Source: Phoronis australis (taxonomy: Eukaryota > Animalia > Phoronida). From it: DNA of 39,294 bases. Each line of letters opens with the position of its first letter. The stretch's first letter is position 1. Both the position numbers and the translations under genes were made by a program. The notes beneath the pieces were generated by a model. That model did no database searches. It saw only the letters and a program-made list of their open reading frames with translations, and was not told the origin of the DNA. Positions 932-38,617 of this stretch are shown here, piece by piece. The DNA is taken from the NCBI GenBank assembly GCA_002633005.1, contig NMRA01001150.1, positions 8,998-48,291 on the forward strand, in the 5' to 3' direction.

Positions 932-1061
932 TTGTCTTAAAGGCCTGTCCTCTTCATCAACATCAGACATGTCACAGCTCAATTGGTCATCTTCAGTAGC
1001 CACGGATTCTCTAGACTTTGTGGCAAATACCAGTCTTCACTGCTGTCACTCTCCACTTCAT
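932..1061 (-). CDS. Acidic C-terminal exon of the transposase (DEVESDSSEDWYLPQ / SRESVATEDDQLSCDMSDVDEEDRPLRQ) with an apparent 1-nt frameshift near 1017-1019
   Basis: Acceptor ttagcag at 1062-1068 and donor GTGAGT at 926-931; phase-1 entry fits the exon ending at 2926; the two acidic halves are in different frames. Confidence 0.55.
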
Positions 1062-4000
1062 CTGCTAAGTCAAGGAAAGCTTGATGAAAGTAGCTTAAAC
1101 TGACCTCAACTTTTTTGGCAAGGTGATGCCATGGTTAGTGTTGAGCTTTACTATACATCAAAAGTGTGTTTCCTGAGATATTACCTAGATTAAACAGCTA
1201 GTATAATCCCATTTTTGATGGACCAGCAGTATCTACTTAAAAGCTATCACAAAACCACTTACTCTTAAAATACTAAATTTAGATCACTTCCTTCAACAAA
1301 ACTGATGTCAATTTGTTACGCAAATGAGCAATAATTCCCGAGATTTTGAAGAAATGCCCATAAAAATACAACGAATACTAAATTGTCTTTTCAATAACCG
1401 TAAAGGTTGGGGTATGATTGAAAATTTGAAAAAGATGAAAACTAACTAAATGTATTTGGTAATGGGGGACCACTCAGGCCTTATGGAAAATGGCACTTTG
1501 GAAACTATTTAAAGATATCTCAAACGAATTCCAAAAAAATGTTTGTTTTAACAAGATTTTTTCAAAGGCCACGACCTCCAACCCTGGACCTCTGGCATAG
1601 AAAGTAGTTACAAAAGATGAGGCAAGCCGAGATAGGTTGATCGATTCATTGCAATGTTTATAGTTCAGTATGTGATATATATAGATTATTATTACATGTT
1701 CTCAGTCAATATCCCCCTTATCTAGAGCCCGAGTGGATTTTGTAGAATTATCGCCCTCACGCAGGGCTAATACCCCTCAGCAATAATTTTACAAAATCCA
1801 CTTGGGCTCTAGACTACAGGGGATAACGGATTCGCCATGTCATAATCTATATTCAGGTTGAATGTGGAAGTACTGGTTCAAAATTTTGATGATACAATCT
1901 AAGAAATATACAAAAACATCCTACAGCTTATTGTTTAATTTGGATGAAAAAAGAAGGAATCTGAAGTTAAACTTCTATCTAAATATGGTCTGGCTGAATC
2001 ACTGAGACAACCTTTATTAATGATTTTTCTCAACATGTTATACACTTTTATTTACAAGGCTGGCAGAGCGACATTGATAACAACTTTAAGTTAAGATGCA
2101 TTTCTCAATTTAAATTAGAGTACATGAATTAGTTGAACCTTACTTGTTATCAGATTTGCCGGGAAATTCATAATGTAGCTGTCGAAACCGGCTGGCATAA
2201 TATTGTTACCTATTTGACCACATGTCTCATTTCTGTCCAAACAATATCGAAAATGAATATCATTTTGCACTTGTATGCCCATCATTTCATGATTTAGGTT
2301 TAGATTTACGTATACAGGAAAAATATTGGAGCAGTCGCAATGTCAATAAATTTATTAGTTTTCATAAAAAATCTTGACAGATATTAGTATCATTAACCAT
2401 TGATTTAGTTGGAGATCCTCATTGCATTATACCAAACGGACTAAAAAATTGTTGGAATTAAGAACTACCATTTAATAAATTTTTAAGCCAACAATATTCT
2501 TTCAAAATTCATCCTGGGCAACCTCAGGTTATTCAATGGAATGTGTGCATCGCCTCCTACAAAATGCAAGATCTGGGATGCTTGAATTCCAAATAATTTA
2601 TGACATTCTCTGTTCCACTTAAGTGCTATTTCAAGATTAAGTATTTAAAATTCTGTTTTAGTGCTAAATGTCTGGTGACTCCAGCATTATGGATAATAGT
2701 TCGAGTCAGAACCCATCATTTCAAGTATTTTCTTGCAAGAATGCAGGATGAGAGATATGTATCCCAGCACAGAATAAATAATACATGTAAAGACTTTGCA
2801 CAAAAGTAGAACAGAAGATATCAAAAATATTTTGAAGTTCGATTTTGACCCTGCCTCCACAAGCACAACTTGCTGATAAAAAATAAAATAGGGTTGAAAA
2901 AGTACTGTGACTGGTGGTATCTTACCCTCTGTACCATCTAGCTTTTGGAACCACTGGCTCCACCATTCCTTATCGTCTTCGTTAGTCATGAATTTGCTGG
3001 CTGTCATAATTCCACTTTTTAGCTTGTGCAGCTCCAGCTTTTCATAGTTTGGGGTCAGCAACTTTGGGTGATTGAGTGGTATTGACGTAAGCAAGTATGG
3101 CCCTGCATAAACACAGCAGTGAGATTAATGCATAAAGCAACTTTAATTTGCACAATATTACACTTTGGTTGGAGAGTGCTTATAAGGAAGTAAAAGATCA
3201 ACCTGTTGCATAACAATGAAAAGGAAATTCAGCAAGAATGCTGGCACAGACTGCCACAGACTTCTCTTATGACTGAACTTTTGTACGTGTCTGGAAGCAA
3301 CACTTAGGACTCAGTCACAAGTCTTATTAAATCCTGACAAGTTCAATTAACAGTGAAAAGAGTATGACAAATTAATTATTTCTTCAGCAAAAACACGACA
3401 TTGTGGATGTTTGGTACCGGATTAATGTATTAATGCCAAACTCCGTGATGCAAAACCATCACACATGAATTGAATGTAATATGTAACAGCTTTGATAAAA
3501 CAGGATACCTACCAGTTTCTATGTTAAAGTCCGCTGGTGTCCAGTTGCTGTCAGTGGACCACTTTTTTACAGAGATGGAGCACTTGCCGTTATGAAGGGA
3601 AAATTTAAATTGGTGAGGCAATGAGTGATTGTGCATGGGATTTAAGTGAGGTTTTATCCATGCACTTATGTTATACATTTTGGAAAACAAAAACGAAACA
3701 GGGTTTGGTGTTGTGCATCTTGAGAACGCTTCCATTAATTTTGGATTCGTAAGGATCGAATGGCGAGCTAAGTAGGTAGAAAAACGAGAAAAAAACCTGG
3801 TCCACATCTTCATGAGTATGGCCCACCATTAAAAAACCAACTTTAATTTTGGAAAAAATTCTCATTTCCACCAAAAGCGCACAAAGCCCAAAAATTACAA
3901 TATTCTTATTTTCCCTCCAACAATTGTCCATTTGGAGATACAAAATTGGGGGCAAAAAGCTCATACATGACAGTGTTCGGAGCAGGACATTGGCAGTCAC

Positions 4001-7000
4001 ATCTGGCCCGTGTCCCCACTGCCCAACGTCAAAAAACCGATAGTTTGATGTCCGTGGTTAATTACCCCAGTCAGATGAGTCCTTAATTGATGTAATTTTT
4101 GTAAAGTTTTGCTATATATGTTGAAAGCCGGTAGATTTGTTTTTTGCTGGTCCATGCCATCCAGAATTATGCAAGCGTATTTACTAGGGTGAGACCTTGC
4201 CTTGGAGCTGTGTTTGTAATATTTTTTTCTCTTATTGCTGAAAAATAATAAGTTTCATTATTCAATTAAGATACTCTCATTTCCACCAGATTAGAATGCA
4301 AAAACCTGTTATCACTTAAACATGGGGACATTTAGAAATTAGAACAGTCCATGTATTTTCAATTTTACCACCAGACTTCAAATAAGAAAATTAAAAGCTA
4401 CCCACTTTAAAGTGATGATTAAAAGCCCATTAAGGAAATATACATGCAGTACGATTTGAAAACACCTTCAATGTTGCCAATAATTAATTCCAGGATTCCG
4501 ATCACAGTGCAATTAGTACCAACCAGGTATATTTGAAGTTTACCATGTAAACTGCAGTTGTGGCACATACCTTTGTTTANTTTGATAAAACAGGATACCT
4601 ACCAGTTTCTATGTTAAAGTCCGCTGGTGTCCAGTTGCTGTCAGTGGACCACTTTTTTACAGAGATGGAGCACTTGCCGTTATGAAGCGAAAATTTAAAT
4701 TGGTGAGGCAATGAGTGATTATGCATGGGATTTAAGTGAGGTTTTATCCATGCACTTATGTTATACATTTTGGAAAACAAAAACGAAACAGGGTTTGGTG
4801 TTGTGCATCTTGAGAACGCTTCCATTAATTTTGGAATCGTAAGGATCGAATGGCGAGCCATGTATGTAGAAAAACGCGAAAAAACTTGGTCCACATCTTC
4901 ATGAGTATGGCCCACCATTAAAAAACCAACTTTAATTTTCGAAAAAATTCTCATTTCCACCAAAAGCGCACAAAGCCCAAAAATTACAATATTCTTATTT
5001 TCCCTCCAACAATTGTCCATTTGGAGATACAAAATTGGGGGCAAAAAGCTCATACATGACAGTGTTCGGAGCAGGACATTGGCAGTCACATCTGGCCCGT
5101 GTCCCCACTGCCCAACGTCAAAAAAACCGATAGTTTGATGTCCGTGGTTAATTACCCCAGTCAGATGAGTCCTTGATTTATGTAATTTTTGTAAAGTTTT
5201 GCTATATAAGTTGAAAGCCGGTAGATTTGTTTTTAGTATGTGATAATTTTTCAATGTAATCAAAAACTATTAAATTAACAGCTACCTTATTAAGTTTTGC
5301 ATGGTAGAAGTCAATTGTGACCACAATTTGTAGTGTACCCTTTTATACAACTGCGCTGCATTAAGCCATTAAATTTTATTCGGTGGTTCTTGTGCAAAAA
5401 AAATTTAGATTAGAAACCTGGAATGATGGTACTTTAAAATAACCTAGCTTTTACAGTTATATGACAACCATCATTTTTCACCAAAAGTGGCCACCGAAAA
5501 TGGACCTTGATTGTGATTCGTCCGTCTATATTGGCCATAAAGAACTGCAAACATTGCAACGTGGGCCTAATCTATTTTCAAAACCAGTTTCTAATTTGTT
5601 TCTAACTTGTTTTCACTCAATTAGACATTCGGTAAAAAAGTTGCCTATTGCAGATGTACGTGAAATTACAATACCCGGCAAATGAATGTCATTTTGCCCC
5701 TTTAAGGTAAACGATCAGTGAGACGGACGGATAGTTGCGTTGAACACCTGACAGATACTTCACATTTCTGCCAAACATCTGCAACCGAGCAAATACTTAG
5801 AACCCAACAAACATACGCTGAACTTGGTGACACGACTTGATACCCGCTATTGCGGCAGACCTGGTTCTGATTCCAAGGCAAGGCCTCTCCCAAGTGTCTA
5901 TTAGCTCTATCACACAAGAATGCCCTGTTCCAGCCCTGACCAACAGTACGGTAGTTCATTGACCCAGTCAAGTCAACACTGGCTGAATTCTCTGTCAATG
6001 AAAATTGTTTCGTGCCCTCAGTTATCTATACTTGGGCACCCAAAGAAAATTCATGTAGCGTTTCCCAGCTAAAACTTCAATCTTACAGACTTGTAAAAAG
6101 TGCAGTGACCCCAACCAACTCCACATTTTAAGCCTGACTTGTTTACCAAATGATACCCATGGGAGGTGCAGCAGGAGGCTGGAGGCTATAAAGCCCTCCT
6201 TTTGCCAGTGCTGCGCCGCCCCTGGATACCCCTAGACTCACAATGCAACATTCCGATCTATTTCAAAAACGTATCCTCATGATTATAATTGAAGAACCAT
6301 TAGTATTTTAGTCTTACATTACTTTATCCATGTTTTAGCGAAATTTCTTTATTGTGGCACCTGGCAAGGGATTGAACTTTGGCATGTAAACCATTACAGT
6401 CATGGATTAGTTGGTAACTGACTGACAACACCAACTCCAAAAAAATCAAATGCCACACAATATCAAATTGTTAAAACATCAAGATTATTGAAAATTTGCG
6501 TATATACAGTAAATCAAATTATAACAGTACAAGTGGCATCTGTGGAATCTGTTTGCTACTTCCTTTCGGAATCGGGATGCTGATCATAAAAATTTATTAC
6601 TATAACATGTAATATTACCGATCCTTCTACTGCTACATAACCTTGGGATCATGTAAGTGCAGGTGAAAACTTATGTGAAAATATCTCATGTAGTTAACAG
6701 GAAACTTAATGCCAAAAGCAACATTGAGATCACGTTCTCACAACCTATCCCGACAAACTGCTGAATGAATAACTATCTAAGTGACACAGAACACAAAACT
6801 TTACACTTCTGGAAATTATTATGAAACTTCTGGTTCATAAAATTGTGTTTCAGGTCACAAACAGAGCAGAGTCAAGTGAAAAAATACAAAAATAATTCTG
6901 AATCACCTCTTTTTGTTAACAGTAAAACCTCCCCAATGCAATAATAAAACCATCTTGTATGCAACTACTACAATTAATCCTAAATTAGTAGAACCCTTTA

Positions 7001-10000
7001 AATCACCCAAGTGTTGCAATTTTTAAAACTTTTCACCTCCACCATGATTAGAGACAGCTCTGCTACAGGGCCATGTTTTGATAAGCAGATATCAAGCTGG
7101 CTTATTTCTAAGCTCCCCAGCAGTCTTTTGTCCAGCACCAAGTCCCTGCTTTTGTCCTGAGCTAATGGCATAAATGGTCTGAAGGGATTTCTGTGCATAT
7201 CCCTTTACTCAGTTACAGGTGTGGTGCAACAAGCCCTGTTTTGCTGGCAATGAGAATGGCCATTTCAACACTGATCAACTTTCATTGCAGTAACCAAATG
7301 ACATACCGTATTCACCCTAATGAGCGCCCATGCCCCTGTAAACTCCCCACACGCGTTTTTACACTTTGCTAAAATAAGCACATGAACTCCANGGGTTTCG
7401 ATACCAACCGTCACCAACAAATCTGTGCTTAATTAATGTTCAAGAAATATGAATCAGCAAATTGTGGTTGTCTTTTTGGAGTGCGTCTTTCTACTGCTGA
7501 CTTTTGTTTACGTTGCTGTCCTGTATTGACACAGGTATGAATAACACACTGGTTAAATTGACCAGATGTGTGCATCTGTACATGTAAGTGCTTCTATAAT
7601 CTGGCTATAATTAAATCGCATTACTGCAGAAACGAAATATTTGCTGTCACGCCACTGGCTAATAGGCTAAAAACAGTATTAGTCAGCTATTTTTCTTTCT
7701 TTGGTGTAAAGCTAACCAATGAAAACCGAGGTTACATCAACTGGTCATAAAACGTGTGCTACTGAATGATGGCTGCGTGTTCATACACATAGGAAACCAG
7801 CAAGTCGGCTGGCACTGCAAGACACTGAAAGAGGAAAAATGGAATAGTTAGCCGTACCCCAACAGGGTTCTACCTGTGTAAGAAATTTGTCTCTGGGTAA
7901 ACAGATATGTAAGAGAGTTGTGGAGGAAAGTTTGTGATGGTCCTTAGAATCGATTTTTTAAACAGCCTTGACATTTTGTTAAAAAATACCGAATGTAACA
8001 ACATTTTAAATCTTGTAGTTTTAATAACAAAAAATATCTTTATCAATGTAGAATGCAAAACAAAATTCCATTAACAACTGATAACAATAGAGTTTTAAAA
8101 ACTACAGAAATATAGAATTTACTATTAGTAGAGTCAAAGGTACATTAGAAAATCGCAACAAAAATGGACCTTAGTACATGTGTATTGTAACTGTCAGTTT
8201 GTTATATCAAATGTTTGTCAGATTATCCCAATGTTGATGAAATCCTCCCGACTTAGAACTAATTGTCCCGGGTGTTCTCGAAATGTAATTGCTGGGTTAT
8301 TGAGGTCATGTGACCACCGAAGGGACACTTTGCCCCACTGGAGAGGTGCGTGTGGATATTCTCACACTTTAATCGCAGGATTGCATGTTACGTTTGCAAC
8401 AACATAATATTATGTAAGTGACACGTGACTAGTACATATGCACTGAGTTTCAACTGCAGAACAAAGGGCTTGAAAATTTGTTTTCGACTTATGCTAAAAT
8501 GCAGGACATCTCACATGAAAATAAAGGTTTTTCCATTGCAGTTTGGTGAGGAAAGTGTACAGACTATAGAGTCTACAAACTTTTAGAGAAATGATCGTAG
8601 TTAAAGTTTAGGTATTTTTTCATTTAAATTAAACCTGATTTACGCAACTCCGGTGTGGTTGAAATCAAGTCATAGTATTCTTATGTACAAATTTGTTAGG
8701 CTTAGCGTAAGATTTGTCTCATGAAAGCATCACATTCACGTTTCCAAAAAACTTGTATATTGTAATTTTGATAAACAATGGGTAGGCAAATCATTAAGTA
8801 AATCTCAATACCCTCAGATTTAATTGATCATTATACTGCAGAGGTTTGAGACATGAGGCTAAATTGCAACTTGCCATGTATAAATGTCGTAAATATGCAG
8901 CATATTTTGAAAGTTTTAACAAGTGTCATTTTTGCATTTGAGATTACATTGCTTGAGACGTTACCGAAAATGCATTACTTACTCTTAAACTGCTTAATTA
9001 TCCTCCTCATCGTTGTCTCCTCATTTCCAAGCACCAGTCGCCAGCCAACAAGACACAGTTTAGTTGTCCCTATTGTGAAAAGGAAGTCAAAATCATCTTG
9101 AACCTGCGTTGAATGATGTTCGAGGTAATTGAACATCCACAAACGCTGCTCACTCTTTGACATCTTAAGAAACGTTGCTCTTGCCATTTCCATTTCTTGC
9201 ATGCCTATAGTTGAAAGGCATAAACAGATACAGCAAGCAACTGCCGGCAAGATGCTTAAGTCAAGAAGCTGCTTCTTTGGCTCTGAAATGAACAAAATGA
9301 TGAAAACTCAGACATTATAAGACACAGAACTTCAGTTAAATTATTTCATAAATTGAGAGTGCCTTTGAGGTCAAATGTGAAAGAGAAAATATGTTCATTT
9401 CCGTAACAATGCAATGACAGAACCACAGAATGGATGTCAGTAACCAACCTTTATACTTTAATTCCTATTATAATGCTGAAACATATAATTCAGGCCTCTT
9501 TTAAAGTAGGTAAGCTCAGTATTCTCATTACATCACCATGACTAGATTTCAGACACCTGGCTGGGAAAGGTAATTGGACACAGAGACACCAGTGTTCTCC
9601 ACGACCTTTTTTAACTCAACGCAGTAACGAGTTTGGCTTTTGCCGCGTCTAGTTTGGGGAAAGCGCGTCAGTTGGCTTAATTTCACTCTCTCCGGCTTCT
9701 GTCGTGCATGAAATTCATCGGGCCTCAGGCGCTGGCAAAATTAATGATGCCTCATTAAATTTTTTTTACTCTTTCTTGAGTAAACTAAATTATTTACCCG
9801 GGTGTTGGAAAATTGGCGTTTTTCAGTTATTCTGCTACTAAAATTGCAATGCACTATCGGGCCAATTTCCATGTCCTTCAATCAACTGTGGAGGTTGCAT
9901 ACATGTCGTAAGAATCGGAAGTGGTTTCATTTCGTTACAAGTTTTTACTGTTTTAATACCAAAAAAAAAACAATTTCAGAAAATACTCTCGAGAGATATC

Positions 10001-12831
10001 GCGAGTTTTGGGAAATGGCACGTAAGTGCACGTGTCACGAGATTGCACTGTTTCCTAAACGACGGCAGATAGTAGGATTTGCCTTTGTAACAAAAGGCAG
10101 AGAATAACGAAAAATGTTTATTAAATTTTGTTTACTTCAGTAAATGGCTGTAACAGGCACTGTGAGTGTTGATTCATACCCAGATTTTGCATGCACCACT
10201 GCAGGTTGTTAACTCAAAGTTTCACGACGAGGTGACGAGCTGAGCACCAAGGTTGTGCCACTGAAATTTCGGTGTCTAAACGGAGCTCTACACACAGCTA
10301 CCTAGCTGTATGTTGACGACAGTCTTCATACAGCTATAGCTGGCTTTCTACCTCAGTATGTACATTTATGATGTAACTTTTGTACGGCAGATAGAGTATT
10401 AGCCAAAATTTTGTCCTTCTGACATTCACACCCCGGACTGCCAAATGAAATCTGGGAGAATTTTATGGAGGCCATGGCCCCCTTGGCCCCCCTCCAAATC
10501 CGCCACTGACACCTATATACTGTGTGTACAATACAATATTTTAAATGCATTCTTAGTTTTCACTTTAAACTGAAGAATATCTGATTACAGTACTTTGTGT
10601 CACGGCCGATTCCCACAGCTGCACACCTTAATTGCCTACTAAAAATCTGACAGGTGACAGAAATTCTGCTTGAATCTTTGAACACAGTCTCTTCAAGAAG
10701 TATTCCCGTTTCTAGCGATGAACACTAGATTGGTTCACTCTTAGGTGTAGCTATTTCCCCTCGACGTTTCCCACTAGCAGCTACCCGTGCTTTCACACAG
10801 GTAACGGCTAGTTGGACTATATTCCATGTTGCCGATTCAAAAGGGAGCCTCAGTTATATAGCTCTGTCAAGGGTGGATAAAAGATGTTCCAGTTAGTTTT
10901 CTGGCCCTCATGTCATGTTTACCTCCAAGACTAAATTCTAAAGGCCCTTCATATTGACTTAACTCCAGTCAGAGGGGAGGGTCTATGTAAACAGCCCAGT
11001 TAGGTACCTTATTCATAAAAAATAGCCATTTTTACAATATGTCACGCGTCTAGAAAAATACCTTATTCTCGGGGAAATTCAAATACAAAATGTATACTAC
11101 GTAGCGAAAAAAAGATTTAACAGAACCATCTTGGAACCGCACAACCACGTGCATATTTGTTTACTACTTATCCAAGGTCAAACCGAATCTGCCGCCAGGT
11201 ACAGAACAGCTGCGTATACCCTCAGTCCTTTTATTCACAAAATCACCATAACATTGAGTCAACGAGGTGTACTTATGGTAGAATGGTGCCGGAGAAAACA
11301 AAGACAAAACGTAGTTTTGATCCTAAGGAAGTTAATGTGCGTCTCCATGCATACGACCCTTGGTGTTGAGAACGAATGCTATGGTCGCCTCAGGCCTCTG
11401 TGGTCATGAACACAGCAAGTTGTGATTAAGAGATAAATCCTCACCCTAATTCATTTAATTAAACAAGTGACATTTCAATGAACTGTGACCTATTGCAAAC
11501 AATAGGAAGAGTTAACTGGGAATGATACGTTTAATCATAAATTAAGTAAATTACGCACTGCAAAATCAGTTGACATTACAAGTGAATGTTGAAATAGTGA
11601 ACTGAAAACAAGTTTTCACCAAATAACCAACCAAAGACTTTGAGATTTTCACTTCTCCCTGCAGTTTAATTGACTTTCTTGTCTTTGGCAAATCGACTTT
11701 ATTTGAACTTAGGAACACGAGTTCTCGAAAACGGCTCGGTGGTTTTCGCTGAAACTTTACAAATAATTTAATGTTAAGTCATCAATTTCAAAACCACTGT
11801 CTCTTGCAATGAACACTCAGTTCACTCTTAGGTGTAGCTATTTCCCTTTGGCGTTTCCCACTAGCTGCTACCCCTGCGAAAGCAAGGGTAACAGCTAGTA
11901 CTAACTATATTCAGTGCAACATTGTTCCCCAACTGGTCCTGAACAACCATTTTATGGCCTGGCCAAGGCCTAAGCTATTCATTACAAAGAACTAATCCCA
12001 GCATGACCTATAATCTAATTATACTGGCATCACTACTCACAGTAGGAGCTGGGCCTGACAGGAGGTGGACTAAACTGGTTGATCTACTTATGAAATCTGG
12101 CCATGTTCACAACATGACTACTCAAATTAAATATTTTGGCAGCAACATGAAACACCTTACTTTTCCTCGGAATTGTGTAGAGCAGGGGCATATCTTCATT
12201 TGAGGAGTCATCTGACAGAGGTTCCCTTTGAACAGTTGAGCCTTTTGGTCTTCCCCTTTTTTTGCCTTGCAAATTAAAAAAAATAATAGACTTAGTAATG
12301 ACAATACAATTTGGTTCTGAATGCCGGAAATAACTTAAAAAACATTGCTCATTCAAATAAGGTTTTGTTGGCATCAAATCCAGTAAAATCACAAAGTCTA
12401 TTCATAGCACAGGTATGCCTTTTTGGGTACTAATGGACAACACAATGTCCCTAAAGACTAATAGCTTAACACCTGATGAATTATTAAAGAGGTTACTACA
12501 AACAAATGTTCACGACTTGTCTCGTATGAGAGAACAGCTATTTTCACAAATTGTCTTTGTAAATCAAACTCAACTTAACTACAAAGTAAATAAATATTAT
12601 CTATTTCGCAATGTTGAAACATGAATTAAAAAGTGATAATTTTAACTGAAAGTACCAAAAACTACACCAGTTGTGATTGTGAAGAACTCCCAACTAACAC
12701 ATCACATCTTATTTGAAATTTCAAATTTACCACAATACTTTTGGCTCATGGACAATGTTAGACACAGAGACACAATACCGACAACATAAACTAACCTTGT
12801 GCAGCTGCAGACTTCTCCATATTTTCTTCAC
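932..12831 (-). CDS. Multi-exon Sola-like (DUF7869-type) DDD transposase. Exons 12796-12831, 12161-12265, 8983-9282, [middle exons missing at the 4580-7392 assembly break], 4571-4579 (cut by N), 3513-4237, 2926-3102, 932-1061. Probably continues left of the window
   Basis: GT-AG bounded, phase-compatible exons; motifs KYYKHSSKARSHPSKYACIILDGMDQQKTNLP, LYLQMDNCWRENKN, FLMVGHTHEDVDQVFS; N-terminal CCICLCL...EQRLWMFNYL...IGTTKLCLVGWRLVLG. Confidence 0.8.
1679..1852. mobile_element. Short near-palindromic MITE
   Basis: Ends atatagattat / ataatctatat; inner arm tctagagcccgagtggattttgtagaattat pairs with ataattttacaaaatccacttgggctctaga. Confidence 0.7.
1856..2400 (+). pseudogene. Degenerate 3' fragment of a non-LTR retrotransposon ORF2 (RTE-X/CR1-like C-terminus with Cys/His knuckle), in a transposase intron
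   Basis: Frameshifted translation KYWFKILM...YSLLFNLDEK...SEVKLLSKYGL...FYLQGWQSDIDNNFKLR...HNVAVETGW...HFCPNNIENEYHFALVCPSFHDL. Confidence 0.7.
2926..3102 (-). CDS. Transposase exon (GPYLLTSIPLNHPKLLTPNYEKL...DDKEWWSQWFQKLDGTE)
   Basis: Acceptor tgcag ending at 3103, donor GTAAG at 2921-2925, phase 1/1; lies inside ORF 2687..3094. Confidence 0.8.
3513..4237 (-). CDS. Catalytic-core exon of the transposase, with two homopolymer frameshifts in this copy (A7 at 3789-3795, A6 at 4031-4036)
   Basis: Acceptor tttttcag ending at 4238, donor GTAGGT starting at 3512; holds DGMDQ, QMDNC and GHTHEDVD; the second copy at 4603-5234 is open across both positions. Confidence 0.88.
4581..5234 (-). pseudogene. 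Second, 5'-truncated copy (allele or paralog) of the catalytic exon, equivalent to 3491-4144; open frame but lacking DGMDQ
   Basis: ORF 4577..5263 is near-identical to 3491-4144; homology stops at TTTT 5231-5234. Confidence 0.85.
5231..7391 (+). repeat. ~2.16-kb near-identical direct copy of 36459-38617
   Basis: Colinear sequence; ORFs 5702..5998 and 6998..7198 recur as 36930..37226 and 38224..38424; this copy ends at the N at 7392. Confidence 0.95.
8983..9282 (-). CDS. Cys-rich N-terminal exon of the Sola-like transposase
   Basis: Acceptor catttcag, donor GTAAGT at 8977-8982, 300 nt, phase 1/1; CCICLCL...ARATFLKMSKSEQRLWMFNYL...FTIGTTKLCLVGWRLVLG. Confidence 0.75.
10718..10826 (+). repeat. 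~100-bp dispersed repeat, copy 1
   Basis: ttcactcttaggtgtagctatttccc...cgtttcccactagc(a/t)gctaccc shared with 11809-11913. Confidence 0.75.
11809..11913 (+). repeat. ~100-bp dispersed repeat, copy 2
   Basis: Same core as 10718-10826, moderately diverged. Confidence 0.75.
12161..12265 (-). CDS. AT-hook exon (GKKRGRPKGSTVQREPLSDDSSNEDMPLLYTIPRK), probably part of the transposase gene
   Basis: 105 nt, phase 1/1, donor GTAAGG, AAG acceptor; RGRP AT-hook core; in frame with 8983-9282. Confidence 0.6.
12796..12831 (-). CDS. Candidate 36-nt micro-exon (EENMEKSAAAQ)
   Basis: cattag acceptor, GTTAGT donor, phase 1/1, no stop. Confidence 0.4.
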
Positions 12832-14974: not shown

Positions 14975-15024
14975 CATTTGATTTTATTTGCTGTATTTTG
15001 AAGTGAGTAACTTTTTATGGGGAT
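14975..15024 (+). repeat. 50-bp perfect direct repeat, left copy (candidate LINE target-site duplication)
   Basis: catttgattttatttgctgtattttgaagtgagtaactttttatggggat is identical to 16256-16305. Confidence 0.8.
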
Positions 15025-15034
15025 AAACTATCGC

Positions 15035-15754: not shown

Positions 15755-16255
15755 GATCCACTGTTTCACTTTGTGAATGACAGAAAGTACATACATCAGA
15801 GTCCACCAGGTTAATTTTTCTAAGAAAAGAGTTGGTTACAAGTATTCTATGTAATAGTTTAAACTGCAGTGTACATAACTTGAAATCATAAGTAGTTTTA
15901 AAAGACATTGAATATAATTTTTTCCAGTCATCACTTCGAAAGTTATAACCTTCGTTTTGAAATTTTTTTTGGGCAATAGGCAAAATGTTGTTGTGGCAGA
16001 CACTTTCATATATCATTTTACATATTGATGTGCAGTTTAAAAAATTACGGATATTAAAAGGTATTATTGGTCCATATATCTTAATTAACTGCATTTGTAA
16101 TGGTGTTCTCCTCAGAAACGACCTAATAGACTCAATCAGAGAACAATATTCCAAAAAGTTTGTAGATATGTTCGAGATCTTTTTGAATTCAGTAAATGAG
16201 TAAAAACTGTTATTTTCATCAAGTAGGTCATTAATAAAAAGAACACCACCACTAG
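15755..16255 (-). mobile_element. 5'-truncated L1/Tx1-like non-LTR retrotransposon, ORF2 C-terminal zf-RVT region; 3' end lies in the gap
   Basis: Open frame GVLFINDLLDENNSFYSFTEF...NFLEYCSLIESI...DWKKLY...KLCTLQFKLLHRILVTNSFLRKINLVDSDVCTFCHSQSETV. Confidence 0.88.
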
Positions 16256-16305
16256 CATTTGATTTTATTTGCTGTATTTTGAAGTGAGTAACTTTTTATG
16301 GGGAT
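16256..16305 (+). repeat. 50-bp perfect direct repeat, right copy
   Basis: Identical to 14975-15024; abuts the truncated 5' end of the LINE. Confidence 0.8.
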
Positions 16306-28800: not shown

Positions 28801-31800
28801 ATTCAAGAAGAATAATTGTGCAGCTTCACTGTTCAGTTCACTCCATATAGAGAAAGGTACACAAATGGGAACTCGTAGAAGAGAGAGAATATGCGGCATA
28901 TGCAATCTGAGTAAATTCAAGATGTCAATATCATATCTCCTGTGTCGATGCCTAGTTCATAGAGACGTTAGAAAAAACCTAGCTGAGCTTGTGAATGTTC
29001 TGGGTTAATTGTTCTAAAACCCCTCAACGACTCGCTCAACCCACAACCTTGACCCACGACCTCCTTAACCCACGGCCCCCTCGACAGGCCTTTATGCAGC
29101 GTACGCCCTGGGCGTCCAAATGGACACCCTAGCACGTGACTAATATGGACGACCTGGCGAGGACGTCCAATGTATCATTTGATGCCCACTATCAATAGGA
29201 TCCTTTCAAGTTTGGACACACACATTGTAATGATTACTAGGATCAAAGCCTATGAAGACTCACAGTGGTACTTGGCTCTTTTTTCAAAGCAGGAAGACAC
29301 AATGTATATACAAAGTACATACAATGTTGCTATGCTAACACATAGCATTGTAAAAGTCAAGTGTTTTGGTAAAATTGCTCACAACAGAAGGCTGTTTGTA
29401 AACTTCGATGTAAAAACCTTGGTCTATGCATATTTTTGTGAAAAAAATCTGTGTGTTTGGGGGGATTACTGAGGGTGGGGGGTTACGCGTCGGAATATTG
29501 GGAACCCCATGTTGGACAGTACCCTATTTTCGAAATCCTGGATAAAAGCCTGTCCCTCGACCCACGTCCTTCAACCTTGGACTATACACAAGCGTGACTC
29601 GATCTGAACTTAGAACAAACACTGACAATGCAGGAGCAATGAGTTGGGCGGTGAGCACAGCTGGATTTTAGGTTTTTTGCAATTAAGAGAGTGGGATTTG
29701 GCAAGTTTGAAAGCCAAACACTAGAAAAAAAACAATGCGACCAAATCAAATCAAAGACTAGCTACCACATTACAAATCTCATTCCTGGCAAAGTGTACTA
29801 GCTCTCAGATCTGCTGTAAATATTCTGAATATGCATATATGAATTTATGTATTCATGTATGTGAGGGCAACTCTGTAAGTAATATTGACATAAAATTTAA
29901 TTTGATTTCTATAAAACCTGTTTTCTATAAAACCTTTCAGATCGCATGAAAGTTGATGTGACTATACTTCAAAAACCCAAGCCTGAGCACCTGGCCAGGC
30001 CAGTGCAGAGGCAATGGGTGAATGAGCTGAAGTCTAGGATCTGTTCATCACCATCACCCATCACTACAGTGTTTCCTTGCCTTGTGGAGACAGAATTCGA
30101 AGAAGATGACCTCCACAATCAAGTCATATACACGCTGGGAGGAAATCATCTACGCACAGCACTGTCTGAAATACTGACGACAACCAATATAGACATGATC
30201 AGGTAAGCTTAAGGTTTGTGTACATAAATGATGACCGAACGTCAATTTTAAATGTATTCAGGCTAATTAAAATGCCTGGGTAATTGACTCTTGTTTAAAG
30301 ACAATTGTGTAATTGTAACTATATTTATTGATAGAATCTTGTCAGTAGCCTTCTGTTGGTTAAGTCTACATTAAAGGTTTACTATTTTACAGAAATGTAT
30401 GGATTGACGTGTATGTTGGACTGACAAATGAAGAGGTCAGGCGCCTAAGTAACAGCGACAACCTGAGAGCAGAGACAAGACGTCTCAGCTTTCAGGACAA
30501 GGTTCGGCAAGCCCGTGCAATACTGTTTGAGATGTCTGGTTTTAGCCCTTCCGAGAACCCACCTGCAGACCTACCTGTAGGATTCAAGGACATGGTCAAA
30601 GTGCAGCTTGCTATGCTTGATGTGGTATGTGCTTTTCATTAGCAGTTAGGTTTGTGTAGTGCAATGCAATAACACTTACAGCTAAGTTAGGAGTACAAAA
30701 GGAATGCATGTAAATATTTTCACTGAAGTTGGTATTTTGCTTACAAGCCAAGTACAGTTGCACATTCCAATAAAACTGAAACACATATACAACTTACTGA
30801 GTATTTTTTGCCATTTTCAGTGCTAAAATTACCGTCAACGTCCGGGTTAACACCCTGGGCGGTTAAATTGGCAAACACAAACATTGGGGGGTGGGCGGTT
30901 AACCAGACATGGGCGCTTAAACGTGAAATTTCAAGAAATCCAGGGTGGGCGGTTAACTGAACATGGGCGCTTATTACGACAGACAACCGACCTGGGCCAT
31001 TAATCTTGATCAGAGTACTACAGGACACACGTACTTGGAACGCGTAGAATTTTTCAAAGAGCTTTATCGTCAAGTCGCCAAATGTCGCTAAAAGTGTCAT
31101 AACAGCAGACGATCCCAAGAAATGTTCTGTTGCCCACAGGTTAGTCAATCACAATTAAATTTACAAAATTGGTGATCAGTAATAGCCCTGTGCCGTCCTG
31201 CGATCTTATTAGAGCTATAGTGCACAGATAGTAACAGTAACTTGGATTGCAACTATTCTCACGCGATAACACTTGTGTGCGCGTGCGAGCTTCACATGTT
31301 GCAGAGGTCACAGCAGACATCAGATTTACGGTGCTAGCTGTCAAGTTCCGAGTCAAAGACCAGTTTTAAAATCAACATCATGATGATGTATTTAAAGTTT
31401 GAAGAACAAATTCAGGTGTTTTTTGTGTTTTTGATGTTTATGTTGGAGATTAGATTAGACTCCGTGACTCATTTTCAATGTATGGTTCTGCGGCTAGCTG
31501 TTTATAATCTCGACCGCCTGGCGTTGCCCACTTCCAATTGCGTGAAACATGCGACTCAAAGAAGATGAGAATCAGGTGTAAGCGGACATGAGCCAGTCGT
31601 CAATCAAAAGTTACCGCAAAGGCATAAAAAGCAAGCATATGCTTAAGATTTTATTTTAAAATTACTAACACTATGACTGGAGAGGAGTCTAGTGAGCGTG
31701 TACAGTAGAGTCTGAGGAAAAAATTACCAGTTCGTACACGTATCTGCGTTGGTAAAAAACAATTCATAGATGTAGCCCCAATTCTTCGGGTGACCGGCAT

Positions 31801-33884
31801 CCGTGGTTTGCGCGGCTATACGACTAAATTAGTGAAGCGAGCTTCAACCAGCAACGCGTCCTTTCCGAGTCAGTGTTTTGCAACCGAGACTCCGCGCTCG
31901 GCATAACAAACTGCACGTCGCATTGCCGACCTGAAATTTAGAAATGCAAGCCGATATTATAGATGTCTTGTACCTGCCACCGGGAAATTCCAACCTAAGC
32001 AAGCCAGTTTTTGGGTTGGGGGAAATAGATAGGCCTACCTGGCAAACATAAAGCAACTCGAAAAACACATTTATTTTAAATGCAATATGTACAGATTATC
32101 CAATTATAATATCACCAATTTCAAATTCAACCATGTACGCTATTGTGCAAGCTATCATAATGATGAAGGCAATTAACATGTGCACTAAATTAAAAAGCAA
32201 TAGGCATGATGATACAAGGATTGTCCAAAATTCATGCTTTCAACAGTAATATTAAAAAGCAAATGCAGAACTGCATTTCAGTGAAACTTGTGTACCAACT
32301 TACATCCTGGCTTGTATACAGTTGTGCATACATTTTGCTTTTGTAGAGTGATGGAGCCCTCAGCACAATTTTGAAGCTGGCTAAGGCAAGTAATAGATGT
32401 TGGAAGTGCTTGCTGCACATATTTGTGGAAATGGACGAAAAATGCGCCAATGGAGAAAAATGCAATGTTTCTGTAAGTTAATTTAAGTTGTAATAGCACC
32501 CTTCTTTTGCTTGTGTTGAGCTGACTGTAGGTATAGCCCAACTGAATTGAACAGTCTTGTTGAGAGGAATCTGATAAGAACAGTATTTGATGACGCAACT
32601 AAGCAAATTTAAAGGATTGCCTCTGCAATCAGATACCTGTTACAACAACGTTTTAATTCAGTTTGAATTGACCTCAGAAATGTAAAAAGCCAATTGAACA
32701 ATAACGCGACATCGGAATTTTTTAATGATTTAATGGCTGACATCCAGTATGTGAAGCATGTGAAAGTTTTGTAATCGACATTACCAAGTTACATGATCTT
32801 TATCTTCACTTGACTACATTGTTTCAGACTTGCAAGTTTTGAATCAACATAATAAGGTAAATTATATTCCTTTGTATTTCAGGTATTTCAGAAATTTTGT
32901 GGGCTCTCTGAAAGTGAACTTTTTGGATATCTTGCAAAAATTACAAATGGCTTCATCCACCTCAATGACTGTGGAGCAACCATTGTGAAAGACAAGAAAA
33001 TGCGAACTCTCCAGCCACAATTTGTTCTGTTGACCAAAAGCAGCACATGGGAGGAAGCTAGAAGACAATTTCCCAACTGGACAAAACCTGAGAATCTGGA
33101 AGATCTGCTCCCTTTTGTTAAAGGTGATTTATGTTATTGTATAGGTGATTCCTATGATTTTTTTCTGTAGTGCAGCATGTCAAGTGAGCGTGGATGCCAA
33201 CTGAACTGAATTTGGTGCCGTTGTCCTGCTTTATGAACAGCAAACTCAAAATGTTGCACTTGTTGACATATTTGACATACTGAGTCCCCTTGCAGTATCC
33301 TATATCTGTGTCTTGTTTTTTAAATTTGAAGTGCTGGCAGCTTTGATTGTTGATTTTTGGCTTCAACTTGAACAGGAACTGATGATGTATAGGACTTGAA
33401 AACCAAGGAATTAAAAGTTTTAGAGAAATTGATAGAAGAAACATGGCTATTCCCATGACAAAAAACTTTCAATTCAATGGACCACTTATCATAGGCCAAT
33501 TTTAAAGCAAAATGCTTATTCGATGAAACAAAAGAAGCCATTTGATTGTTTAATTACAACAAAATTGATGCTTTGATAAATTTTTAATTTTTTAAAAACC
33601 TTTCAGCCCACCCGTCACAACAAGTGTTGGATTTTTGCCGACGTGCAAGATTAGACCAGCAAATACAAACTGAAGTGTTCATCACAGTAAAGCATAATGG
33701 AGTGGATATAACTGCCTATGACAAAGTTCAAGAACTAGTAAACAAGCATCAACAAGAAATTGCTAAAGTTGTGAAGTTTATGGAGCTTTCAGGCCCAAAA
33801 GACATAACCACTGAAGATGATTCCATGTTTGATGATGCTGATGATTCCCTGTTTGATAGTGTTGACTTGACAAGCCAGAAGTGA
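25862..33884 (+). CDS. 7-exon gene for a 532-aa protein with a ParB/sulfiredoxin-like domain. Exons 25862-25999, 26743-27064, 29941-30202, 30393-30624, 32347-32472, 32883-33123, 33607-33884
   Basis: All six introns GT-AG and phase compatible; 1599 nt with no internal stop; ParB-like pattern LARPVQRQWVNELKSRI...FPCLV...YTLGGNHLRTAL...VWIDVYVGLTNEEVRRLSNSDNLRAETRRLSFQDKV. Confidence 0.8.
27236..28961 (+). repeat. Tandem near-identical duplication 27236-28103 / 28105-28961 across a single N (probable allelic overlap)
   Basis: The copies meet at N 28104; duplicated short ORFs in the track. Confidence 0.9.
29085..29552. mobile_element. hAT-like non-autonomous element
   Basis: TIRs caggcctttatgcag / ctggataaaagcctg; flanking 8-mers cccctcga and tccctcga (7/8 match). 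Confidence 0.65.
29941..30624 (+). CDS. Exons 3-4 (29941-30202, 30393-30624) encoding the ParB/Srx-like domain
   Basis: ctttcag|AT...AG|gtaag and ttttacag|A...GTG|gtatgt; GGNHLR and DNLR motifs. Confidence 0.85.
30830..32070 (-). mobile_element. Degenerate pogo/Tigger-like DNA transposon relic in intron 4; one end visible, far boundary approximate
   Basis: Starts TACCGT...cgggttaa with repeated gggcggttaa/tgggcgctta, matching the MITE at 34151; decayed CENP-B-like HTH text VEARFTNLVV*PRKPRMPVTRRI on the minus strand. Confidence 0.45.
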
Positions 33885-34150
33885 TAACTTGTACATTAAC
33901 CAGCACTTTCATCGGTAATAAACATTAATCTAGTACCTGAAAACTTGTTAATCTGACCCTGCACCTCTGTGGCTGTTTTACAGTTAAGAGCAACCTGTGT
34001 AACAAACCACGTCATTCCTGTGTCCTTTGGCATGGATCTTGTTAGATTTACGTATAAGGATCCATATACCATGCTCACAAACAAATTTAGGAACATGAAG
34101 ATTAAATAACAACAACTTGCTTATTATCACCAAAGAAAAATAAATGGACA

Positions 34151-34313
34151 TACCGTAATCGTTCGGGTTAATGCCTTGGGCGGTTAAATTGGCGAATCCA
34201 AAAAATCGGGGGAGGGCGGTTAACCGAGCAATGGGCGATTAAATCGAAAATCCACTTAAAGTCGGGGATGGGCGGTTAACTGAGCATGGGCGTTAACCCG
34301 AACGATTACGGTA
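34151..34313. mobile_element. Complete pogo/Tigger-type MITE with TA ends
   Basis: Perfect TIR taccgtaatcgttcgggttaa / ttaacccgaacgattacggta; internal gggcggttaa repeats. Confidence 0.85.
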
Positions 34314-34349
34314 CAACATAATGTTACCATGTGATGCAGAATCAGTGCT

Positions 34350-35559: not shown

Positions 35560-36553
35560 TCAACCAGTAACATTTTTTACGGTTTACAAGTGGAACACTG
35601 GGCCTAACATTGCTTTAACTATAGCTTGACTAACAGGTGAATGTATTGAAAACTAGGCAAATAGCACCAATAAAGTTTTTGAAAAAGTTGTAACTTCCCA
35701 TTTTCTATTTGTAAGAATCATATTGCAAGAGAAGGAAGTTCTCATTATACTGTGTTAAGATATGCAATGTATCATCATGTAGAACAACTTGATCAGTACG
35801 GTAATAACTTTTCTTATTTTAGTATGTGATAATTCTTCAATGTAATCAAAAACTATTAAATTAACAGCTACCTTATTAAGTTTTGCATGGTAGAAGTCAA
35901 TTGTGACCACAANCACATATAAATATGTGGGCGCATAAAAATGAATACAGTCTGACAAGAAACGGACCTTATCAAATCTATGAACAATAAAATGCCACAC
36001 AGGACTTGACTAGTACTGAAAATCCTAGAAGTCACGTCATGTGACAACTGATATTGCAGTGGCAGGTTCTCTATCTCTCAAGACAACTTAAACTTGCAAC
36101 AAAACAACAAGTGAAGGCAGCACAAAACTCGAGACCATCCCATACATTTGTAACTTAGTCAGAATTTGACATTGATTGACGCGCGTAGTGTACGTACCCC
36201 ATCAACCAGTAACATTTTTTACGGTTTACAAGTGGAACACTGGGCCTAACATTGCTTTAACTATAGCTTGACTAACAGGTGAATGTATTGAAAACTAGGC
36301 AAATAGCACCAATAAAGTTGTTGAAAAAGTTGTAACTTCCCATTTTCTATTTGTAAGAATCATATTGCAAGAGAAGGAAGTTCTCATTATACTGTGTTAA
36401 GATATGCAATGTATCATCATGTAGAACAACTTGATCAGTACGGTAATAACTTTTCTTATTTTGGTATGTGATAATTCTTCAATGTAATCAAAAACTATTA
36501 AATTAACAGCTACCTTATTAAGTTTTGCATGGTAGAAGTCGATTGTGACCACA
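35295..36553 (+). repeat. Near-identical duplication 35295-35912 / 35938-36553 around the single N at 35913 (probable allelic overlap)
   Basis: Colinear copies with few SNPs. Confidence 0.88.
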
Positions 36554-38617
36554 ATTTGTAGTGTACCCTTTTATACAACTGCGCTGCATTAGGCCATTAA
36601 ATTTTATTCAGTGGTTCTTGAGCAAAAAAAATTTAGATTAGAAACCTGGAATGATGGTACTTTAAAATAACCTAGCTTTTACAGTTATATGACAACCATC
36701 ATTTTTCACCAAAAGTGGCCACCGAATATGGACCTTGATTGTGATTTGTCCGTCTATATTGGCCATAAAGAACTGCAAACATTGCAACATGGGCCTAATC
36801 TATTTTCAAAACCAGTTTCTAATTTGTTTCTAACTTGTTTTCACTCAATTTGACATTCGGTAAAAAAGCTGCCTATTAAAGATGTACGTGAAATTACAAT
36901 ACCCGGTAAATGAATGTCATTTTGCCCCTTTAAGGTAAACGATCAGTGAGACGGACGGATAGTTGCGTTGAACACCTGACAGATACTTTACATTTCTGCC
37001 AAACATCTGCAACCGAGCAAATACTTAGAACCCAACAAACATACGCTGAACTTGGTGACACGACTTGATACCCGCTATTGCGGCAGACCTGGTTCTGATT
37101 CCAAGGCAAGGCCTCTCCCAAGTGTCTATTAGCTCTATCACACAAGAATGGCCTGTTCCAGCCCTGACCAACAGTACGGTAGTTCATAAACCCAGTCAAG
37201 TCAACACTGGCTGAATTCTCTGTCAATGAAAATTCGTGCCCTCAGTTATCTATACTTGGGCACCCAAAGAAAATTCATGTAGCGTTTCCCAGCTAAAACT
37301 TCAATCTTACAGACTTGTAAAAAGTGCAGTGACCCCAACCAACTCCACATTTTAAGCCTGACTTGTTTACCAAATGATACCCATGGGAGGTGCAGCAGGA
37401 GGCTGGAGGCTATAAAGCCCTCCTTTTGCCAGTGCTGCGCCGCCCCTGGATACCCCTAGACTCACAATGCAACATTCCGATCTATTTCAAAAACGTATCC
37501 TCATGATTATAATTGAAGAACCATTAGTATTTTAGTCTTACATTACTTTATCCATGTTTTAGCGAAATTTCTTTATTGTGGCACCTGGCAAGGGATTGAA
37601 CTTTGGCATGTAAACCATTACAGTCATGGATTAGTTGGTAACTGACTGACAACACCAACTCCAAAAAAATCAAATGCCACACAATATCAAATTGTTAAAA
37701 CATCAAGATTATTGAAAATTTGCGTATATACAGTAAATCAAATTACAACAGTACAAGTGGCATCTGTGGAATCTGTTTGCTACTTCCTTTTGGAATCGGG
37801 ATGCTGATCATAAAAATGTATTACTATAACATGAAATATTACCGATCCTTCTACTGCTACATAACCTTGGGATCATGTAAGTGCAGGTGAAAACTTATGT
37901 GAAAATATCTCATGTAGTTAACAGGAAACTTAATGCCAGAAGCAACATTGAGATCACGTTCTCACAACCTATCCCGACAAACTGCTGAATGAATAACTAT
38001 CGAAGTGACACAGAACACAAAACTTTACACTTCTGGAAATTATTATGAAACTTCTGGTTCATAAAATCGTGTTTCAGGTCACAAACAGAGCAGAGTCAAG
38101 TGAAATAATACAAAAATAATTCTGAATCACCTCTTTTTGTTAACAGTAAACCCCCCCCCCAATGCAATAATAAAACCATCGTGTATGCAACTACTACAAT
38201 TAATCCTAAATTAGTAGAACCCTTTAAATCACCCAAGTGTTGCAATTTTTAAAACTTTTCACCTCCACCATGATTAGAGACAGCTCTGCTACAGGGCCAT
38301 GTTTTGATAAGCAGATATCAAGCTGGCTTATTTCTAAGCTCCCCAGCAGTCTTTTGTCCAGCACCAAGTCCCTGCTTTTGTCCTGAGCTAATGGCATAAA
38401 TGGTCTGAAGGGATTTCTGTGCATATCCCTTTACTCAGTTACAGGTGTGGTGCAACAAGCCCTGTTTTGCTGGCAATGAGAATGGCCATTTCAACACTGA
38501 TCAATTTTCATTGCAGTAACCAAATGACATACCGTATTCACCCTAATGAGCGCCCATGCCCCTGTAAGCTCCCCACACGCGTTTTTACACTTTGCTAAAA
38601 TAAGCACATGAACTCCA
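36459..38617 (+). repeat. ~2.16-kb near-identical direct copy of 5231-7391
   Basis: Colinear sequence and duplicated ORFs. Confidence 0.95.
37045..37219 (-). CDS. Candidate exon of an unidentified gene (NSASVDLTG...RANRHLGEALPWNQNQVCRNSGYQVVSPSS); also present in the 5.8-6.0 kb copy
   Basis: ttttcattgacag acceptor, GTATGT donor, frame open in both copies; no family recognised. Confidence 0.3.

What the first reader, a model, noticed from the sequence alone, without database searches (positions are those of the whole stretch)
932..36933. Candidate giant two-gene DNA transposon: Sola-like DDD transposase paired head-to-head with a ParB/Srx-like gene, a motif array and a TTAA-flanked end
Seen: a spliced transposase (minus), an intact spliced ParB-like gene (plus), a clustered palindromic motif right after it, a possible terminus at 36929, and a contig joining the transposase directly to the last ~470 bp before that terminus. 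Known: Sola elements are normally described as encoding only a transposase and being a few kb long; ParB proteins in bacteria are CTP-dependent DNA clamps loading at palindromic parS sites. Inference: these parts form one mobile unit of more than 30 kb, in which the ParB-like protein is an accessory factor (end pairing over long distance, targeting or anti-silencing). I do not know of a described Sola+ParB element.
Basis: partly seen in the sequence, partly recalled or inferred. Interest (0 to 1): 0.88.

Follow-up and report, generated by a model that had tools for sequence, protein, structure and literature searches.

The report
Animal transposon with ParB-like partner gene
This stretch of likely invertebrate DNA holds a spliced, transcribed transposase gene head-to-head with an intact gene predicted to fold like the bacterial DNA clamp ParB, followed by a cluster of short near-palindromes; together they are likely one very large jumping gene of a design reported in algae, but its ends were not found and the proposed right end is not supported.

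Summary
The genes and the array are real; the proposed end is unsupported.

Transposase (minus strand): DUF7869, E 2e-67, with a DDD triad; a public-run contig carries it spliced.

Partner gene (plus strand): 7 exons, 532 aa, no internal stop. Homologs occur in a nemertean, mussels and a brachiopod, and a homolog's model folds like ParB/Noc/sulfiredoxin. It leaves no room for a methyltransferase domain, and its GxxR arginine is replaced.

Array: eight copies of a near-palindromic motif follow the gene, mostly in unrelated flanks.

Proposed end at 36929: the contig cited as joining the transposase to the last ~470 bp runs 1.7 kb past it. A DNA-run contig crosses it unbroken, and no inverted partner lies in the window. 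That contig is a 32-kb deletion derivative; it shows linkage, not a boundary.

The pairing is already published: Ectocarpus Sola1-1_Ec32 (21.5 kb) carries an opposite-strand ParB-methylase gene, and red-algal Plavaka elements have ParB genes beside repeat arrays.

Best reading (0.55): a low-copy Sola-type element of over 30 kb with a ParB-only accessory protein that likely binds its own array. No second linked animal locus could be shown here.

The parts
12796..12831 (-). Probable small 5' exon of the transposase (AG/GT bounded, 36 nt)
   Evidence: Splice signals only; not confirmed by homology
12161..12265 (-). Probable transposase exon with an AT-hook-like RGRP stretch
   Evidence: AT_hook E 0.2, below cut-off; splice signals; one-sided RNA read depth in this bin in X5 and X6
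8983..9282 (-). Transposase exon, cysteine-containing N-terminal region
   Evidence: tblastn E 1e-9 to 1e-13 with 7 of 10 DUF7869 homologs tried; exact exon in spliced contig X1 record 1
3513..4237 (-). Transposase catalytic exon with DGMDQ, QMDNC and HTHEDVD; this copy has two compensating 1-nt indels in A runs (3789, 4031)
   Evidence: DUF7869; motifs and indels
4602..5234 (-). Second version of the catalytic exon on the deletion contig; open frame but lacks the first Asp
   Evidence: DUF7869 E 2.2e-67; matches the X1 spliced contig with 2 differences and no gap; DDE/integrase fold
2935..3102 (-). Transposase exon after the catalytic core
   Evidence: tblastn E 4.7e-10 with P0034
932..1010 (-). 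Last visible probable transposase exon, ending at a GTGAGT donor; the gene likely continues left of the window
   Evidence: Weak tblastn, E 0.30; donor; homologs carry about 120 more residues
4581..7391 (.). Deletion-derivative contig: 3491-4144 joined through a TTTT microhomology to 36459-38617 (about 32.3 kb removed)
   Evidence: a DNA contig of X4 ends exactly at 5234
25862..33884 (+). ParB/Srx-fold gene, 532 aa. Exons 25862-25999, 26743-27064, 29941-30202, 30393-30624, 32347-32472, 32883-33123, 33607-33884; motif GGNHLRTA in exon 3
   Evidence: Gene model and BLASTP to homologs; homolog search; fold of homolog P0003
34351..35558 (+). Array of 8 copies of TAGTGTACGTACCCC-type near-palindromes (core GTACGTAC), starting 467 nt after the ParB-like stop codon
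36186..36200 (+). Haplotype duplicate of the last motif copy
   Evidence: 35295-35912 equals 35938-36554 at 1.0% substitutions
36929..36933 (.). Proposed CCCCT|TTAA end; not supported as a boundary
34151..34313 (.). Nested MITE-like element with 25-nt inverted ends; a partial copy lies at 30830-30969 in intron 4 of the ParB-like gene
   Evidence: I9, D15
15755..16305 (-). LINE reverse-transcriptase fragment beside the 720-N scaffold gap between the two genes
   Evidence: zf-RVT E 0.0012, below cut-off

Best explanation
The transposase gene, the head-to-head gene predicted to have a ParB fold, and the motif array are likely parts of one low-copy cut-and-paste transposon of more than 30 kb whose ends lie elsewhere than proposed, and the ParB-like protein would bind the array on its own element. 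SHOWN: both genes, the open ParB-like frame, a spliced transposase transcript, the array, and linkage of the transposase to sequence beyond the array on one contig. PREDICTED: the ParB/Srx fold with a following helical region (from a homolog's model), and the DDE/D fold of the transposase core. INFERRED: that the parts move together; that the protein recognises the GTACGTAC-cored motif as a dimer; and that, lacking the methylase or oxygenase domain of the algal versions, it works by binding alone. It would mark or compact the element near its right end, helping two ends more than 30 kb apart to meet or shielding the element from silencing. Of these two roles I favour the architectural one. CTP-driven clamp sliding is not established.
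For: Same layout as the curated Sola1-1_Ec32 (opposite-strand ParB-like gene, 21.5 kb) and as Plavaka PAG3 with adjacent repeat arrays. The motif is kept while its flanks are not: only 2 of 15 flank pairs score above shuffles, which fits a binding site better than a plain tandem repeat. No host gene was seen between or around the genes: 0 of 111 further ORFs reach a Pfam cut-off. The deletion contig ties the transposase to DNA beyond the array without relying on the scaffold gap. The ParB-like family looks like mobile cargo. Members are 30-46% identical. Two near-identical genes lie on one Mytilus californianus chromosome, and a divergent lineage exists in the same genus. One of 2 metagenome copies is frameshifted with a stop. 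A sister transposase family about 90% identical is present at about three times the depth of this locus's exon (275 vs 90-98). The nearest feature look-alikes of a homolog are fungal DUF3723 clusters (0.93-0.94), a conserved Starship cargo gene; this is a lead only.
Against: No TIR, TSD, empty site or second full copy was found, and the left end cannot be in view. The 13 kb between the genes holds high-copy repeats, a LINE piece and a 720-N gap. No second linked animal locus was found: 0 of 2 metagenome loci carry a transposase match, though they are only 2.5 and 3.2 kb. The closest transposase family (P0034, 23 members) is multi-copy in M. trossulus, where no ParB-like homolog turned up. The deletion derivative lacks the array and the ParB-like gene. 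Pfam names no ParB domain in the window exons or in any of 27 hits, and the family profile does not align to P1 ParB (probability 0.1). Curated bivalve Sola1 elements average 5.4 kb (PMC10294476, passage).
Confidence: 0.55

Rival explanations
1. Two independent things lie side by side in a repeat-rich region: an ordinary intron-expanded Sola-type transposase, and a ParB-like gene with its array that belongs to another mobile element or to none.
For: 13 kb of repeats and a scaffold gap separate the genes. No linkage was seen elsewhere (0 of 2 loci, 0 of 18 accessions). Algal ParB accessory genes move between transposon families. The CT|TTAA site fits the Kolobok YY|TTAA pattern (PMC9587614, passage) rather than the AWWT target of Sola1 (PMC3845634, passage).
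Against: Orientation and array position match a curated Sola1 element and Plavaka. No second transposase was found near the ParB-like gene. The TTAA site shows no repeat boundary.
Confidence: 0.25
2. The locus was once such an element but is now immobilised: the ends have decayed, and one or both genes persist as single-locus genes, possibly used by the host.
For: Depth at the transposase exons and introns is that of one or two loci (40-98 in X4). The introns are long and filled with repeats. No end was found. RNA-like contigs of X1 cover DNA beyond the proposed end.
Against: The catalytic triad is intact and the transposase is spliced and transcribed. Three versions of one 96-bp stretch exist (D12), which in one diploid would need a second locus. 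A close sister family has multiplied.
Confidence: 0.15
3. The head-to-head arrangement is a scaffolding artefact of a heterozygous assembly.
For: Eight contigs, several with unmerged overlapping ends at 1.0-1.8% substitutions, and a 720-N gap with LINE sequence.
Against: One N-free contig joins the transposase exon to DNA downstream of the ParB-like gene in the expected orientation, and an X4 contig ends exactly at that junction.
Confidence: 0.05

Closest known systems
Sola1-1_Ec32 of Ectocarpus (PMC12477816; passages and supplement row read, figures not seen)
   Same: Sola-type transposase with a ParB-like gene on the opposite strand; giant size; nested unrelated repeats are typical of such giant elements.
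   Different: The algal protein is 1,104 aa with an N4C/N6A methyltransferase domain; this one is 532 aa with no room for one. The algal element has AACCG-CGGTT termini, 282-bp TIRs, a 4-bp TSD and 1,989 annotated pieces; here no end is shown and the locus is low-copy. No palindrome array is mentioned in that paper's main text (0 hits).
Plavaka (EnSpm) elements of red algae with PAG3 (bioRxiv 10.1101/2025.02.11.637652; passages read)
   Same: ParB-like accessory gene with an adjacent array of inverted repeats, proposed to bind its own element.
   Different: Different transposase superfamily; three accessory genes; PAG3 has a 2OG-oxygenase domain; the array here is a dispersed short motif rather than tandem inverted-repeat units.
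Bacterial ParB/Noc/KorB CTPase clamps and sulfiredoxin
   Same: Fold of the homolog model: Z 8.5, rmsd 3.5-3.8 over 127-141 residues to KorB and pNOB8 ParB; Foldseek E 8e-5 to Noc; nearby palindromic sites.
   Different: The motif reads GGNH[LI]RxA with no Arg at the +3 position in any of 33 homolog rows (P1 ParB reads GSRRRAS); no ParA partner; spliced animal gene; sequence identity 10-20%.
DUF3723 (PF12520) cargo of fungal Starship elements (10.1101/2021.12.13.472469; passages read)
   Same: Nearest language-model feature clusters of homolog P0003 (0.93-0.94); a conserved passenger of giant eukaryotic elements.
   Different: No Pfam DUF3723 hit in any protein scanned; Starships use a tyrosine recombinase; the likeness is an untested lead.

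Membership tests
Sola DNA transposons | DDD-type transposase with three conserved acidic residues | tested here: met
   DGMDQ, QMDNC and HTHEDVD are present and invariant or nearly so in 11 aligned sequences
Sola DNA transposons | RNase H-like DDE/D catalytic fold | tested here: met
   The model of the window exon ranks integrases and transposases in the first 20 rows; best Z 7.2, rmsd 2.8, 112 aligned. Z is middling but the list is consistent.
Sola DNA transposons | Placement within curated Sola1/2/3 transposases | not testable with these tools
   No Repbase set on hand. The DUF7869 = Sola1-type label is recalled; no paper holds the term DUF7869 (0 hits).
Sola DNA transposons | Terminal inverted repeats | tested here: inconclusive
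   None within the window, but the left end likely lies outside it
Sola DNA transposons | 4-bp target site duplication (AWWT for Sola1) | not testable with these tools
   No left flank and no genome held; TTAA is not AWWT
Sola1-1_Ec32-type Sola + ParB elements | ParB-like gene on the strand opposite the transposase | tested here: met
   linkage on one contig
Sola1-1_Ec32-type Sola + ParB elements | Methyltransferase domain fused to the ParB-like domain | tested here: not met
   532-aa frame with about 70 residues left after the helical region; full-length homologs end likewise at 403-480 aa; no methylase Pfam hit. The C-terminal part was not folded on its own.
Sola1-1_Ec32-type Sola + ParB elements | Both genes enclosed by one pair of ends and copied together | tested here: inconclusive
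   Only a deletion derivative is seen
ParB/Srx fold superfamily | ParB/sulfiredoxin nucleotide-binding fold | tested here: met
   Homolog P0003 model, pLDDT mostly above 90 over residues 30-200; all 4 Foldseek matches at E<=0.001 are Noc or ParB; Z 8.5
ParB CTPase clamps (ParB/Noc/KorB) | GxxR arginine of the CTP-binding motif | tested here: not met
   The +3 position is mostly Leu or Ile and never Arg; an Arg sits at +4 in 29 of 34 rows, one row mis-picked. The register is read from the GNH pattern, not from a superposition.
ParB CTPase clamps (ParB/Noc/KorB) | Helix-turn-helix DNA-binding region after the ParB domain | tested here: inconclusive
   Alignments run into the ParB DNA-binding region but at rmsd about 10; one Atlas row names HTH_ParB; model confidence there is 53-71
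ParB CTPase clamps (ParB/Noc/KorB) | Specific binding to a palindromic site, CTP binding and sliding | not testable with these tools
   Needs a bench assay
Kolobok | RR..YY termini with a TTAA duplication at both ends and a Kolobok transposase | tested here: inconclusive
   One CT|TTAA site fits by pattern, but there is no partner end, no repeat boundary and no such transposase

The most novel reading that the evidence does not exclude
Animals carry giant Sola-type transposons of over 30 kb whose only accessory gene is a stand-alone ParB-fold protein that loads on a private palindrome array, with no DNA-modifying domain. This protein family, the algal ParB fusions and the fungal Starship cargo DUF3723 would be one ParB-derived toolkit, repeatedly recruited to let very large elements pair their ends or escape silencing.
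Probability: 0.3. Interest if true: 0.8.

Novelty: new variant of a known kind. Interest (0 to 1): 0.56.

Why it matters
Accessory proteins that bind their own transposon are barely known outside plants and algae. My literature searches returned Sola or ParB accessory cases only from algae. An animal version without an enzyme domain separates binding from DNA modification. It supplies a protein and a defined 15-bp candidate site, so the proposal made for algae becomes directly testable. It may also explain how elements far larger than the usual 5-kb Sola size stay mobile, and it gives a possible role to an unannotated ParB-like family in mussels, a nemertean and a brachiopod.

Tried and rejected
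No assembly is held for this window, so flanks and copies could not be searched.

Protein searches. The word-indexed search with the ParB exon found nothing (0 of 36 candidates); HMMER over representatives found 27, of which 2 (P0002, P0013) are repetitive false hits that I dropped. The profile against solved-structure sequences found no ParB. tblastn of P0003 against phages found no match. The ParB-like family gave no locus in viral contigs (0 of 9 stretches) or prokaryote genomes (1 of 9 stretches passed, no locus returned). The transposase gave none in viral contigs (0 of 46).

Motif and ends. The 15-mer occurs singly in 3 viral contigs, with no array. The inverted-repeat search between the right region and 1-931 or 1036-2938 scored at shuffle level. 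The TTAA end was rejected as above. The reading of the deletion contig as a non-autonomous copy ending at 36929 was rejected because it runs 1.7 kb further.

Tree. The ParB-core tree is largely unresolved (6 of 30 inner branches supported) and places the window protein in no supported group.

Runs. No RNA holder was listed for 28962-35900. Read coverage over the ParB-like gene and the array was not obtained, so its expression, copy number and a possible end just after the array remain open.

Notes and supplements. No earlier notes exist for this genome or these sequences. The Plavaka preprint's supplements were not seen and may describe the arrays more closely.


Full report
THE WINDOW. It is a scaffold of eight contigs separated by six single Ns and one 720-N gap. 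Several contig ends overlap their neighbours at 1.0-1.8% substitutions, as unmerged haplotypes do. No whole genome is held. The best named protein matches come from bivalves, a nemertean, a brachiopod, echinoderms and cnidarians, so the source is likely a marine invertebrate (inference).

TRANSPOSASE. The minus-strand gene matches DUF7869 at E 2.2e-67 and has 43 homologs, the closest 54% identical in Mytilus. DGMDQ, QMDNC and HTHEDVD give three acidic residues. A model of the catalytic exon ranks integrases and transposases first among 48,161 chains (best Z 7.2, rmsd 2.8, 112 residues). That DUF7869 proteins of this motif type are Sola1-like is recalled, not tested. A 2,010-nt contig of run X1 lies on 9282-8983 and, 487 nt further on, on 5234-4602, so it is a spliced transcript. 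RNA runs X5 and X6 show low one-sided depth on exon bins. Only about 92 of those 487 nt are in the window, so about 395 nt fell into the gap between contigs. The contig-1 copy of the catalytic exon has two compensating one-base indels in A runs; the transcript follows the open version. The last visible exon ends at a donor at 932 and homologs have about 120 more residues, so the gene and any left end likely lie outside the window.

PARTNER GENE. Seven exons between 25862 and 33884, all introns GT-AG, give 532 residues without an internal stop. The model aligns to Tubulanus P0003 at 34% over 380 columns and to Mytilus P0033 from residue 3 to 492. HMMER found 27 hits to one exon, 25 of them real family members. 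Pfam names no ParB domain in them, though a source labels one Mytilus member ParB/Sulfiredoxin. The fold was tested on the homolog P0003. All 4 Foldseek matches at E<=0.001 are Noc or ParB, and the second aligner gives Z 8.5, rmsd 3.5-3.8 over 127-141 residues, to KorB and pNOB8 ParB. The family motif is GGNH[LI]RxA: the arginine of GxxR is replaced and an arginine follows one place later in 29 of 34 rows (P1 ParB for comparison). There is no room for a methyltransferase domain, and full-length homologs end similarly. Expression of this gene was not measured.

ARRAY. Eight distinct copies of a TAGTGTACGTACCCC-type motif lie on one strand between 34351 and 35558, plus a haplotype duplicate at 36186. 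None occurs elsewhere in the window and none is expected by chance. Only 2 of 15 pairs of downstream flanks are similar: an old block duplication explains two pairs, but the motif persists in at least four unrelated contexts. That pattern fits a protein-binding site (inference).

THE PROPOSED END. Contig 4581-7391 joins 3491-4144 to 36459-38617 through TTTT, removing about 32.3 kb. It continues 1.69 kb past 36929, so it does not mark an end. In DNA run X4 one contig crosses the TTAA unbroken and nothing else was laid in that bin. The window has no inverted partner. The site fits the Kolobok pattern, not the AWWT target of Sola1, although the Ectocarpus element's TSD tends to end in A. Three versions of one 96-bp stretch exist, two undeleted and one deleted. 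Either the assembly mixes individuals and the deletion is an allele, or the deleted form is a second locus, in which case the duplicated unit reaches beyond 38617. Depth is 86-98 where the deleted form is present and 40-64 inside, which fits both; the implied haploid depth is about 24-32 if the interior has two alleles. A sister transposase family about 90% identical has depth 275. A CGGTT, the right terminus of the Ectocarpus element, lies 22 nt after the last motif copy. This was noticed after the fact, the background is 0.45 per kb per strand, and it is untested.

LINKAGE ELSEWHERE. Not shown. The two metagenome loci are 2.5 and 3.2 kb and carry no transposase match; one copy is broken. Viral and prokaryote collections gave no loci. 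Unchecked notes from this scan describe a 13.75-kb animal element pairing DUF7869 with a ParB-methylase-like gene and end arrays; I treat that as a lead only.

WHAT IS KNOWN. PMC12477816 (passages; supplement rows) describes Sola1-1_Ec32, 21,549 bp, with a 1,104-aa ParB-like plus methyltransferase gene opposite the transposase, and proposes that such proteins bind and modify their own element. bioRxiv 2025.02.11.637652 (passages) describes ParB-like PAG3 beside inverted-repeat arrays in Plavaka elements. Curated bivalve Sola1 elements average 5.4 kb (PMC10294476, passages). Fanzor cargo in Sola2 shows that Sola elements can carry second genes (PMC3627910, passages). Searches (listings only, apart from the papers named) found no animal case. 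The nearest Atlas feature clusters of P0003 are fungal DUF3723, a conserved Starship cargo gene (10.1101/2021.12.13.472469, passages); no paper listed mentions ParB.

VERDICT. The genes and array are confirmed, the end is not, and the concept is published for algae. The most likely reading (0.55) is one low-copy giant Sola-type element with a ParB-only accessory protein that binds its own array. Rivals are chance neighbours (0.25), an immobilised relic (0.15) and a scaffolding artefact (0.05). It works like the algal Sola+ParB elements in layout, but fails their methyltransferase feature and is not shown to be mobile. New variant of a known kind; interest 0.56.

Noticed in passing
window 35580-35588 (duplicate 36222-36230): CGGTT followed by TACA, 22 nt after the last motif copy; resembles the right terminus and A-ending TSD of Sola1-1_Ec32. 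Noticed after the fact; background 0.45 per kb per strand.
   Followed up: partly
window 5806-7391 (= about 37035-38617): RNA-like contigs of run X1 cover 1.6 kb beyond the proposed end at depth 7-9, with a coverage hole across the TTAA site; could be a long 3' UTR or a neighbouring transcript.
   Followed up: no
window 5231-5326, 35817-35912, 36459-36554: Three distinct versions of one 96-bp stretch; needs a second locus or more than one individual.
   Followed up: partly
window 4148-4378 and 4941-5125: A 668-nt DNA contig of run X4, about 90% identical and at depth 275, shows a sister transposase family that shares the intron position.
   Followed up: no
window 34151-34313 and 30830-30969: MITE-like element with TACCGT ends and internal GGGCGGTTAA repeats; one full copy after the ParB-like gene, one partial copy in its intron.
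   Followed up: partly
window 14975-15024 and 15755-16305: LINE fragment on both sides of the scaffold gap; 50 bp are identical on the two contigs.
   Followed up: partly
window 5234-5596, 7049-7774, 9590-11767, 13946-15034: Very high-copy short repeats (summed depth 3,000-45,000 in run X4) inside the transposase introns and upstream region.
   Followed up: no
window 1721-1813 and 313-766: A 34-nt hairpin-like inverted repeat (91%) in a transposase intron and a 73-nt inverted pair (74%) near the left edge; probably small nested elements.
   Followed up: no
protein P0003 (homolog): Nearest Atlas feature clusters are fungal DUF3723, and a 119-member mostly mollusc cluster is structurally close; suggests a larger unannotated ParB-fold family in eukaryotes.
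   Followed up: partly
L002 1624-2018: A broken ParB-like copy (frame change and stop) in a metagenome contig.
   Followed up: yes
window 25862-26900: The first ~90 residues of the ParB-like protein align weakly with the N-terminus of Mytilus P0033 and have no named family.
   Followed up: no
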